From a virus (Duplodnaviria > Heunggongvirae > Uroviricota > Caudoviricetes), in the IMG/VR virus record IMGVR_UViG_2721755720_000005: a stretch of 40,305 nt of DNA; one strand, given 5' to 3'. Every line of letters starts with the position of its first letter. The stretch's first letter is position 1. Positions 32,322 to 32,916 of this stretch are shown here, piece after piece. The notes under the pieces were generated by a model that did no database searches, had not been told where the DNA came from, and saw nothing but the letters and a program-made list of their open reading frames with translations. Both the position numbers and the translations under genes were made by a program.

Positions 32322-32345
32322 GAAGGCCTTCCGGCCTTCTTTATT
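32322..32345. terminator. Hairpin terminator between convergent fibre and tail-fibre-assembly genes
   Basis: 7-bp GC stem GAAGGCC/GGCCTTC with 4-nt loop, followed by TTTATT; overlaps the minus-strand stop codon. Confidence 0.55.
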
Positions 32346-32916
32346 ACTGTGGCTGCTCAGGCCATTTAATGGCGTTAAATTCAGCTTCAGTTTTAATGGC
32401 GGGTAATACCATTTTTTTCACCTGACTGATGTATGCCATCCATCGTGCCAGTGCTGCTCTGTCTTCATCACTGATGGTGCCCAGTTGTAGTTCTGTTCTC
32501 CAGTCATTAATTTGTTCATATGCCTGATTAAGATATGACTGGCGCAGTTCTTCCGCTTTTTTGTCGTAATTGACCGGAAGCCGTGAGATGATGCCATTAT
32601 CAAACTTCCAGTTTCCTGAAATATCAGTGCCTTCAGGGTGTTCGTCTGTCTCAACCACGGAAAATCCCGCAGGATACAGCGCCGAGGCGTCCTGTGATAT
32701 TGAGCAGATAACGCCGCTGTCAGGTGTTATACAAAGTTTATATTTTTTGGTGAATAATGGCAGGGACTCATAGAAATCCTTACCATCATCACTCTGAAAA
32801 TACTGTACATCATTACCATAGGGTTTGTGTTCCGGGTAATATCGTTTAACATTAATCAGTTGCATAAACATCACCATGTAAATCAATGATAAAAACAGGA
32901 ACAATACTATTGCCAT
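32344..32916 (-). CDS. Tail fibre assembly (Tfa/U-like) protein, opposite strand to all tail genes
   Basis: C-terminus ...DEDRAALARWMAYISQVKKMV...AIKWPEQPQ follows the Tfa C-terminal pattern; atypical hydrophobic N-terminus and no clear SD; start uncertain. Confidence 0.6.
   Translation of the reverse strand: MAIVLFLFLSLIYMVMFMQLINVKRYYPEHKPYGNDVQYFQSDDGKDFYESLPLFTKKYKLCITPDSGVICSISQDASALYPAGFSVVETDEHPEGTDISGNWKFDNGIISRLPVNYDKKAEELRQSYLNQAYEQINDWRTELQLGTISDEDRAALARWMAYISQVKKMVLPAIKTEAEFNAIKWPEQPQ

What the first reader, a model, noticed from the sequence alone, without database searches (positions are those of the whole stretch)
32344..32916. Orphan tail-fibre-assembly gene on the opposite strand, convergent with the fibre gene
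A Tfa-like gene normally lies directly downstream of and co-directional with its fibre gene. Here it is on the minus strand, converging on the fibre gene across a shared hairpin terminator, with a hydrophobic N-terminus and no clear SD. This looks like the U-prime remnant of a once-invertible fibre segment whose partner genes and invertase were lost, or a Tfa recruited for another protein.
Basis: partly seen in the sequence, partly recalled or inferred. Interest (0 to 1): 0.5.

Follow-up and report, generated by a model that had tools for sequence, protein, structure and literature searches.

The report
Stranded chaperone gene of a broken fibre switch
The backwards-facing tail-fibre chaperone gene is what is left of a DNA-flipping host-range switch in a Mu-like E. 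coli prophage: an 870-base deletion removed the alternative fibre tip and the flipping enzyme, which is ordinary decay of a known system.

Summary
The gene is real, a 173-aa Caudo_TAP/Mu U-type tail fibre assembly protein on the minus strand. It converges on the fibre gene across an 8-bp GC-rich hairpin. Its true start is ATG 32865, not 32916. The "hydrophobic N-terminus" is an upstream ORF extension, and a GGTGAT Shine-Dalgarno sits 4 nt before the real ATG.

The window is an Sp18-like Mu-type prophage inserted in E. coli hsdR. Intact relatives carry fibre(Sc-Sv)> <tfa <S'v, then a gin-type invertase. An approximately 1.4-kb segment between two gix sites is found in both orientations in different genomes. 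When flipped, the fibre reads Sc-S'v and tfa follows it co-directionally.

The window has lost 870 bp relative to strain STEC299. Remaining are the left gix site inside the fibre gene, the last ~21 codons of S'v (frameshifted) and the last 21 codons of gin plus its stop.

Convergent tfa is the usual state of the family (about 207 convergent against about 25 flipped complete E. coli genomes). Whether tfa is still expressed or needed here is unresolved. This is an ordinary, decayed member of a known kind.

The parts
30871..31431 (+). Mu gp48-type baseplate gene (YmfQ family), immediately upstream of the fibre gene
   Evidence: Pfam Phage_Mu_Gp48, E 9.8e-21. RefSeq annotation of relatives.
31431..32312 (+). 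Tail fibre gene, 293 aa. It has a constant part Sc (to about 31959) and a variable end Sv (about 31960-32312).
   Evidence: PHROG 1833 tail fibre, E 1e-139. The N-terminal 198 aa are 46% identical to Mu S. The last ~73 aa are 47% identical to the P2 H C-terminus and 48% to the SfMu fibre. The start codon follows the RefSeq annotation of relatives.
31947..31972 (+). Retained left crossover site (gixL-like): TTATCGATAACATCGGTTTACGGGAA
   Evidence: Matches Mu gixL (read from NC_000929) at 22 of 26 positions and lies at the same place in the fibre protein (FI-N-GL-ETVNRA). Its right 14 nt are identical to the inverted right site of HH35. It is the only such site in the window.
31943..32086 (+). 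Stretch that in intact relatives is repeated in inverted orientation at the start of S'v
   Evidence: blastn: window 31943-32086 matches L001 4792-4650 at 84% and L004 4487-4343 at 80%, both inverted.
32321..32340 (.). Hairpin between the convergent fibre and tfa stop codons: AGAAGGCC-TTCC-GGCCTTCT
   Evidence: Terminator scan. RNA fold -16.2 kcal/mol (z -3.2) on + and -14.8 kcal/mol (z -4.4) on -. A T-rich tail is present on the + strand only.
32344..32865 (-). tfa, tail fibre assembly protein, 173 aa, intact ORF
   Evidence: Pfam PF02413. PHROG 136 full length. PDB 5yvq_B Mu U, E 4.9e-15. Mu U' 30% and Mu U 28% identity.
32870..32875 (-). Shine-Dalgarno GGTGAT, 4 nt before the tfa ATG
   Evidence: Read from the sequence. 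Complementarity to the 16S 3' end is from established knowledge.
32866..32951 (-). Conserved spacer between the S'v stop and the tfa start. It contains the spurious 17-codon hydrophobic ORF extension (32866-32916).
   Evidence: Alignment of 8 alleles. 92.6% identity to O157-type prophages whose tfa region as a whole (window 32410-32961) is only ~73% identical. No significant RNA fold, z -0.15.
32952..33016 (-). Degenerate 3' remnant of the alternative fibre end S'v: the last ~21 codons plus stop, carrying two frameshifting indels
   Evidence: The minus-strand translation TITAYYRLIIDLTIHDAAFST* aligns with STEC299 S'v TVTAYYRPIQYLINGSWRTAGST*. The DNA alignment shows a 2-nt and a 4-nt gap.
33017..33083 (+). 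3' remnant of the gin-type serine invertase gene: last 21 codons plus stop
   Evidence: IGLSILCRYVPASPAPSRKVL* is 80% identical to the HH35 invertase at residues 170-189. Collinearity with relatives resumes exactly at 33017.
33064..33085 (+). Terminator-like hairpin followed by a T-run at the end of the former invertase gene
   Evidence: Terminator scan. Conserved in relatives.
33170..35239 (+). DUF6645/SASA-esterase gene. It is now the divergent neighbour of tfa only because of the deletion, and it is not part of the switch.
   Evidence: Pfam DUF6645 2.5e-68 and SASA 3.1e-12. It lies downstream of the recombinase gene in intact relatives.

Best explanation
The window holds an Sp18-like, Mu-type transposable prophage of E. 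coli, and its tail-fibre host-range switch has been broken by a deletion.

In intact relatives, a Gin-type serine invertase flips a 1.3-1.4 kb segment bounded by two inverted gix sites. The left site lies inside the fibre gene. The segment carries Sv (forward), one tfa (reverse) and S'v (reverse).

In one state the late tail operon reads Sc-Sv and tfa is antisense, converging on the fibre gene. In the other state it reads Sc-S'v, followed by a co-directional tfa.

In the window, an 870-bp deletion (measured against STEC299) removed almost all of S'v, the right gix site, the invertase promoter and about 168 of about 189 invertase codons. The fibre is therefore permanently Sc-Sv.

Shown here: the homologies, the remnants, the single junction, and the inversion among relatives.

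Inferred: tfa is no longer transcribed with any fibre gene. It is probably silent or only incidentally expressed, and it is still intact because the loss is recent or because alleles are refreshed by recombination.
For: The Tfa identity rests.

Intact architecture: relatives with tfa(-), S'v(-) and recombinase(+) are seen.

The inversion is real. O157 ECP19-2498 and O91:H21 FWSEC0008 are collinear except for L006 3084-4519, which is inverted, with gix-like sites (found by pattern) at the left edge in both genomes and at the right edge in FWSEC0008. In FWSEC0008 a full-length fibre is followed by a co-directional tfa, and a 5'-truncated Sv lies on the opposite strand.

Census of 5,426 complete E. 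coli genomes: about 207 show the convergent arrangement and at least 18, probably about 25, the flipped one.

Deletion: window 32351-33017 equals L004 3512-4184, and window 33017-34470 equals L004 5055-6501. S'v and gin stubs flank the junction.

One gix site is retained, with 22 of 26 matches to Mu gixL. There is no second site.

The same junction occurs in six complete genomes: M1, M3, CI5, JE86-ST02, JE86-ST05 and S1-CAM-01-A.

No conserved sigma-70-like promoter or Mu C-box-like motif lies upstream of tfa on its own strand in the window or in three relatives.

Asadulghani et al. 2009 (PMC2669165) note that Sp18 has an invertible host-specificity region whose genes differ from Mu's.
Against: The tfa ORF is intact, keeps a usable Shine-Dalgarno, and shows dN/dS of 0.11-0.16 between lineages that share the deletion. 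That would fit continued function.

Both Sv and S'v end in the P2 H / Mu S-type tip domain (YYRPxQYxxNGxW). In P2 and the other P2-like phages a co-directional tfa follows such a fibre end directly, and Mu S is followed by U. By homology the Sv fibre might need a Tfa as well.

Some 89% of E. coli lysogens carry the Sv state with tfa antisense. This is hard to reconcile with tfa being made only in the flipped state, unless Sv folds without it.

A weak sigma-70-like match (9 of 12) spans the junction at 33030..33002 on the tfa strand.
Confidence: 0.88

Rival explanations
1. The origin is the same, but the gene is not a relic. The single tfa serves both alternative fibre ends and is expressed whatever the orientation, from a promoter in or near the conserved spacer. 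In the window it would still chaperone the Sc-Sv fibre.
For: The Sv and S'v tips are the same P2 H / Mu S-type domain. The convergent state is the majority state in E. coli lysogens. The ORF is intact with a Shine-Dalgarno, and dN/dS is about 0.14. The spacer is 92.6% conserved where the tfa region as a whole is only ~73%. A 9-of-12 promoter-like match lies at 33030..33002 on the tfa strand.
Against: No promoter-like site on the tfa strand is shared by the window and relatives, and promoter-like hits do not exceed the shuffle expectation. No C-box-like motif was found. HH35-type alleles lack the long spacer altogether. The tfa alleles of deleted forms do not form a clade. Their dS (0.22-0.43) far exceeds the divergence of the neutral stubs (0.04-0.065). 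The low dN/dS can therefore be inherited or imported by recombination. tfa is frameshifted in JE86-ST05.
Confidence: 0.27
2. The Tfa has been recruited as chaperone for the divergently transcribed DUF6645/SASA-esterase protein (33170-35239).
For: The two genes are divergent neighbours in the window, 304 bp apart. The 689-aa protein has a carbohydrate esterase domain and a DUF6645 domain, and the DUF6645 end matches DNA annotated 'carbohydrate binding protein' in phage ASU11.
Against: The adjacency was created by the deletion. In intact relatives S'v and gin lie in between. The DUF6645 protein has no P2 H / Mu S-type tip domain. In the flipped relative, tfa follows the fibre gene.
Confidence: 0.03
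3. The window shows the ancestral state, and the relatives gained S'v and the invertase by insertion.
For: None was found. Structurally, the short form is the simpler one.
Against: The window contains promoterless, start-less 3' stubs of both S'v and the invertase gene, abutting at one junction. It also keeps a gix site inside the fibre gene that has no partner. The short form is rare, found in 6 of about 230 family-bearing genomes.
Confidence: 0.02

Closest known systems
Invertible G segment of phage Mu (Sc | gixL | Sv U > < U' S'v | gixR | gin)
   Same: The constant fibre part is homologous (46% over 198 aa). The crossover site lies at the same position in the fibre protein and matches at 22 of 26 nt. 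The tip domain is of the same type. The Tfa is Caudo_TAP, 28-30% identical to U and U'. In relatives a gin-type serine invertase lies immediately to the right.
   Different: There is only one tfa for two variable ends. The segment is 1.3-1.4 kb instead of 3 kb, and the variable ends are about 115-125 aa instead of about 330. In the window itself S'v, gixR and gin are deleted, so nothing can invert.
Sp18, the Mu-like prophage of E. coli O157:H7 Sakai, and its relatives in STEC
   Same: Same prophage family: gp44-48, fibre, tfa, recombinase, DUF6645, DUF1378, DUF826, com and mom in the same order. Asadulghani et al. 2009 (PMC2669165) state that Sp18 has an invertible host-specificity region with genes unlike Mu's. 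Equating the O157 locus L006 with Sp18 itself is my inference, because Sakai was not examined here.
   Different: The window lacks the invertase and S'v. Its Sv allele is type A (as in HH35, M3 and CI5) rather than the O157 type B.
P2 H-G, 186 and PSP3 fibre plus tail fibre assembly pairs
   Same: The Sv tip is 44-47% identical to the C-termini of P2 H and PSP3 gp19. The Tfa is 31-37% identical to P2 G, 186 Tfa and PSP3 gp20.
   Different: In those phages tfa follows the fibre gene directly on the same strand, and there is no inversion system.
Other Din-family fibre switches: P1 C segment with cin, e14 P segment with pin
   Same: The principle is the same: a serine invertase swaps fibre C-termini that travel with a Tfa gene. 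This rests on established knowledge. A P1 fibre and Tfa match was seen.
   Different: As I recall, those segments carry one tfa per variable end. That arrangement was checked here only for Mu.

Membership tests
Caudo_TAP tail fibre assembly proteins (Mu U/U', P2 G, lambda Tfa) | Profile match above the curated threshold | tested here: met
   PF02413 at 66.3 bits against a cut-off of 22.1. PHROG 136, E 2e-53, full length.
Caudo_TAP tail fibre assembly proteins (Mu U/U', P2 G, lambda Tfa) | Sequence similarity to an experimentally characterised member | tested here: met
   Mu U, PDB 5yvq_B, E 4.9e-15. blastp against Mu U' 8e-23 and Mu U 5e-19.
Caudo_TAP tail fibre assembly proteins (Mu U/U', P2 G, lambda Tfa) | Gene lies directly downstream of, and co-directional with, the fibre gene it serves | tested here: not met
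   In the window it is convergent with the fibre gene. The feature is met in the flipped relative FWSEC0008.
Caudo_TAP tail fibre assembly proteins (Mu U/U', P2 G, lambda Tfa) | Chaperone activity on a fibre tip | not testable with these tools
   Needs co-expression or genetics.
Gin/Cin/Pin/Hin-type invertible fibre segment | Serine invertase gene next to the segment | tested here: not met
   Only the last 21 codons plus stop remain, at 33017-33083. Full genes are present in HH35, STEC299, O157 and O91.
Gin/Cin/Pin/Hin-type invertible fibre segment | Two crossover sites in inverted orientation | tested here: not met
   A single site at 31947-31972. No second site within 3 mismatches of the relatives' right site, or within 2 mismatches of the shared half-site in a plausible position.
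Gin/Cin/Pin/Hin-type invertible fibre segment | Two alternative promoterless and promoter-linked fibre 3' ends | tested here: not met
   Sv is intact. S'v is reduced to 65 nt with frameshifts.
Gin/Cin/Pin/Hin-type invertible fibre segment | Both orientations observed (in the family, not in the window) | tested here: met
   L006 against L005: inversion bounded by gix sites. About 207 convergent against at least 18 flipped genomes.
Gin/Cin/Pin/Hin-type invertible fibre segment | Recombinational enhancer (sis) with Fis sites in the 5' part of the invertase gene | not tested
   That region is deleted from the window and was not examined in relatives.
Mu-like transposable prophage (Sp18-like) | Mu gene order around the fibre locus, and insertion without a fixed att site | tested here: met
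   gp48 Pfam hit. Relatives annotated gp44-48 ... com/mom. The host flanks differ between relatives (dgc, flgL, molybdopterin genes). The window's right end lies inside hsdR.

The most novel reading that the evidence does not exclude
In this prophage family one Tfa gene inside the invertible segment would serve two alternative fibre tips. It would be made even when it lies antisense to the late operon, from an orientation-independent promoter in the conserved spacer. Alternatively, the Sv tip, although of the Tfa-dependent P2 H / Mu S class, would fold with no phage-encoded chaperone. Either way the window's 'orphan' would be a natural experiment, with the gene kept and the switch lost, showing which of the two holds.
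Probability: 0.25. Interest if true: 0.45.

Novelty: new member of a known kind. Interest (0 to 1): 0.25.

Why it matters
The practical value is mostly for annotation. A convergent tfa next to a short Mu-type fibre gene signals a G-like inversion switch, or the remains of one, and is not a new arrangement. This prophage is fixed in one host-range state.

One modest open point concerns the family rather than this window. A single chaperone gene accompanies two alternative fibre tips and is antisense in about nine of ten lysogens. That raises the question of how, or whether, the majority fibre form obtains a chaperone. Invertase-less variants such as this one would be convenient material for testing it.

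Tried and rejected
1. Reading the 190-aa ORF as the protein was rejected. The first 17 codons are an ORF extension into a spacer.

2. I tried to show selection on tfa after the deletion. Pairwise dN/dS is low, 0.11-0.24 among the close alleles. However, the deleted forms do not cluster for tfa, and dS is 4-10 times the divergence of the neutral stubs. Recombination therefore confounds the test, and the result is inconclusive.

3. I looked for a promoter for tfa. Sigma-70 scans of the window and three relatives gave no shared site on the tfa strand, and the counts match the shuffle expectation. The Mu C-box dyad TTAT-N6-ATAA and CCCC-box variants taken from the window's mom upstream region gave no hit near tfa.

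4. The spacer does not fold significantly as RNA, z -0.15.

5. My remembered Mu gix sequence found nothing at 3 or fewer mismatches. The site was then identified by comparison with the real Mu record and has 4 mismatches.

6. An exact look-up of the 173-aa protein in the assembly index found nothing.

7. Tfa as partner of the DUF6645 protein was rejected on synteny.

8. I looked for co-variation of tfa alleles with the Sv or S'v type. O157 and O91 share both fibre ends but have divergent tfa, so there is no usable signal.

9. A paper on programmed inversions (PMC9881135) had nothing on single-tfa segments.

Full report
**The observation**

An ORF of 190 codons lies at 32344..32916 on the minus strand. 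Its product is a tail fibre assembly protein. The supporting matches are:
- Pfam Caudo_TAP at 66 bits against a threshold of 22.1.
- PHROG 136 'tail fiber assembly protein', E 2e-53.
- Mu U, PDB 5yvq chain B, E 4.9e-15.
- 30% identity to Mu U' and 28% to Mu U, taken from the Mu record itself.

The gene converges on the fibre gene (31431..32312, +). The 31-nt gap between the two stop codons holds an 8-bp GC-rich hairpin at 32321-32340. Its fold energy is -16.2 kcal/mol on the + strand (z -3.2) and -14.8 kcal/mol on the - strand (z -4.4). A T-rich tail follows the hairpin only on the + strand, so it looks like the terminator of the fibre gene rather than a two-way one.

**Corrections to the observation**

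The protein starts at ATG 32865 (MQLINVKRYY...), giving 173 aa.
- RefSeq annotates every close relative that way.
- The 173-aa form covers positions 3-177 of the 178-position PHROG profile.
- It aligns with Mu U from residue 2.

The 17 hydrophobic codons upstream (32866-32916) lie in a conserved spacer. Their ATG is ATA in strain FWSEC0008, and the whole stretch is missing from the HH35-type allele, which has AGGAGG-N5-ATG instead. In the window, GGTGAT (32875-32870), complementary to the 3' end of 16S rRNA, sits 4 nt before the real ATG. The 'hydrophobic N-terminus' and the 'missing SD' therefore both come from taking the longest ORF.

**Context**

The window is a Mu-type transposable prophage. 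The baseplate genes resemble Mu gp44-48 (annotation of relatives). The fibre's first 198 residues are 46% identical to Mu S.

From 37923 onward the window is E. coli hsdR at 100% identity, starting about 735 nt into that gene. The host is therefore E. coli, and the prophage interrupts hsdR.

About 230 of 5,426 complete E. coli genomes carry this fibre locus, including O157:H7 strains. Asadulghani et al. [quoted passage not shown] Equating the O157 locus examined here with Sp18 itself is my inference, because Sakai was not examined.

**What intact relatives look like**

HH35, STEC299 and O157 ECP19-2498 share this gene order:
- gp48.
- The fibre gene (+).
- tfa (-).
- A fibre 3' end without a start codon (-), here called S'v.
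- A recombinase gene (+).
- The DUF6645 gene (+).

The fibre gene contains a gix-like site at the same place in the protein as the Mu Sc/Sv boundary. An inverted copy lies just before the recombinase gene.

The segment does invert. O157 ECP19-2498 and O91:H21 FWSEC0008 are collinear on both sides, but L006 3084-4519 is inverted between them. A pattern search found gix-like sites at the left edge in both genomes and at the right edge in FWSEC0008.

In FWSEC0008 a full-length fibre (Sc-S'v) is followed by a co-directional tfa, and a 5'-truncated Sv lies on the other strand. About 207 genomes show the convergent state and at least 18, probably about 25, the flipped state. A tfa that converges on the fibre gene is thus the usual condition of this family.

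**What happened in the window**

Against STEC299, window 32351-33017 equals L004 3512-4184, and window 33017-34470 equals L004 5055-6501. This means 870 bp are missing at a single junction.

On the left of the junction, the minus strand reads TITAYYRLIIDLTIHDAAFST*. STEC299 S'v reads TVTAYYRPIQYLINGSWRTAGST*. The window's copy carries a 2-nt and a 4-nt gap.

On the right of the junction, the plus strand reads IGLSILCRYVPASPAPSRKVL*. This is 80% identical to the C-terminus of the HH35 invertase.

Lost are almost all of S'v, the right gix site, the invertase promoter region and about 168 of about 189 invertase codons.

The left site survives at 31947-31972 (TTATCGATAACATCGGTTTACGGGAA), matching Mu gixL at 22 of 26 positions. 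It has no partner in the window.

The same junction is present in six complete genomes: M1, M3, CI5, JE86-ST02, JE86-ST05 and S1-CAM-01-A. These combine it with two different Sv types. This points to one old deletion that has since spread by recombination. The stubs of both genes rule out the reverse polarity, in which the relatives would have gained the genes.

**How it most likely works**

Shown:
- The family uses a Gin-type switch that exchanges the fibre tip.
- tfa sits behind S'v.
- The window cannot switch and makes Sc-Sv only.

Inferred:
- tfa in the window is no longer part of any fibre transcript.
- No promoter-like site on its strand is shared with relatives, and hit counts equal the shuffle expectation.
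- No Mu C-box-like motif lies nearby.
- The one hit, 9 of 12 at 33030..33002, straddles the junction and is weak.

I therefore read the gene as an intact but stranded relic.

**What speaks against 'relic'**

Both Sv and S'v end in the same tip domain as Mu S, Mu S' and P2 H (...YYRPxQYxxNGxW...). In P2, PSP3 and related phages such a fibre end is followed directly by a tfa homologous to this one, and Mu S is followed by U.

Yet about 89% of lysogens hold the state in which tfa is antisense. If that state reflects the form that infects E. coli, as G(+) does for Mu (an analogy from established knowledge), then Sv fibres are made either without Tfa or with a Tfa transcribed in some way I could not detect.

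Selection tests do not settle it. dN/dS of tfa is 0.11-0.16 between deletion-bearing lineages. However, those alleles do not cluster together, and their dS (0.22-0.43) far exceeds the divergence of the neutral stubs (0.04-0.065). The signal may therefore predate the deletion or come from recombination with intact phages. tfa is frameshifted in JE86-ST05, a prophage in which two other genes of this stretch are also frameshifted.

**Comparison with known systems**

The locus works like the Mu G segment, and the homology covers the constant fibre part, the crossover site, the tip domain, the Tfa and the invertase. It differs in three respects:
- One tfa instead of two.
- A segment of about 1.4 kb instead of about 3 kb.
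- Variable ends of about 120 residues.

The window itself fails three defining features of an invertible segment: the invertase, the second site and the second fibre end. It should be filed as a decayed derivative, not as a working member.

The idea that the Tfa was recruited for the DUF6645/SASA protein fails on synteny. The two genes became neighbours only through the deletion.

**Verdict**

The feature is ordinary: a locked, degenerate copy of a known kind of phage host-range switch.

The only point of wider curiosity is the single-chaperone design of the family, together with the unresolved question of whether the majority fibre form needs that chaperone.

Noticed in passing
window 37923-40305 (prophage right end about 37922): The host flank is E. 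coli hsdR at 100% identity, beginning about 735 nt into the 3117-nt gene. The Mu-like prophage therefore interrupts the R subunit of a type I restriction system.
   Followed up: partly
window 33170-35239 (+): A 689-aa protein with a SASA-type carbohydrate esterase domain and a C-terminal DUF6645 domain, matching PHROG 143 (unknown function). It lies between the invertase and com/mom in all relatives. It may be a surface-sugar-modifying or receptor-related accessory gene.
   Followed up: partly
window 32866-32951 (-): The spacer between the S'v stop and the tfa start is more conserved (92.6% to the O157 type) than the tfa region as a whole (~73%). It keeps an in-frame hydrophobic stretch AIVLFLFLSLI(Y/H)MVMF in six alleles, with 4 synonymous and 3 non-synonymous changes and the start codon lost in one. 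There is no significant RNA fold, and the function is unknown.
   Followed up: partly
L003 (E. coli CI5) and NZ_CP011018.1 4872837-4874660: Strain CI5 carries two prophages of this family. One has the same deletion as the window. The second has tfa co-directional with the fibre gene, the flipped arrangement; its invertase was not checked. JE86-ST05 likewise has a deleted copy and a copy with a recombinase gene.
   Followed up: no
window 35576-35589: TTATTCCCGCATAA fits the TTAT-N6-ATAA dyad of the Mu C-protein site at Pmom (TTATGCCCCAATAA in the Mu record). It lies just upstream of the DUF826 gene at 35601 and may be a late promoter.
   Followed up: no
L004 3479-3501 and L006 3479-3501: In prophages with the type B Sv allele, the hairpin between the fibre gene and tfa is a different sequence, and its T-run is on the tfa strand. 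There it would terminate the S'v-tfa transcript rather than the Sv transcript.
   Followed up: no
window 35977-36582 (-): A 201-aa ORF with weak, sub-threshold Pfam zinc-ribbon matches lies on the minus strand between the DUF826 gene and com/mom. Relatives have a shorter hypothetical gene (261-303 nt) at this position.
   Followed up: no
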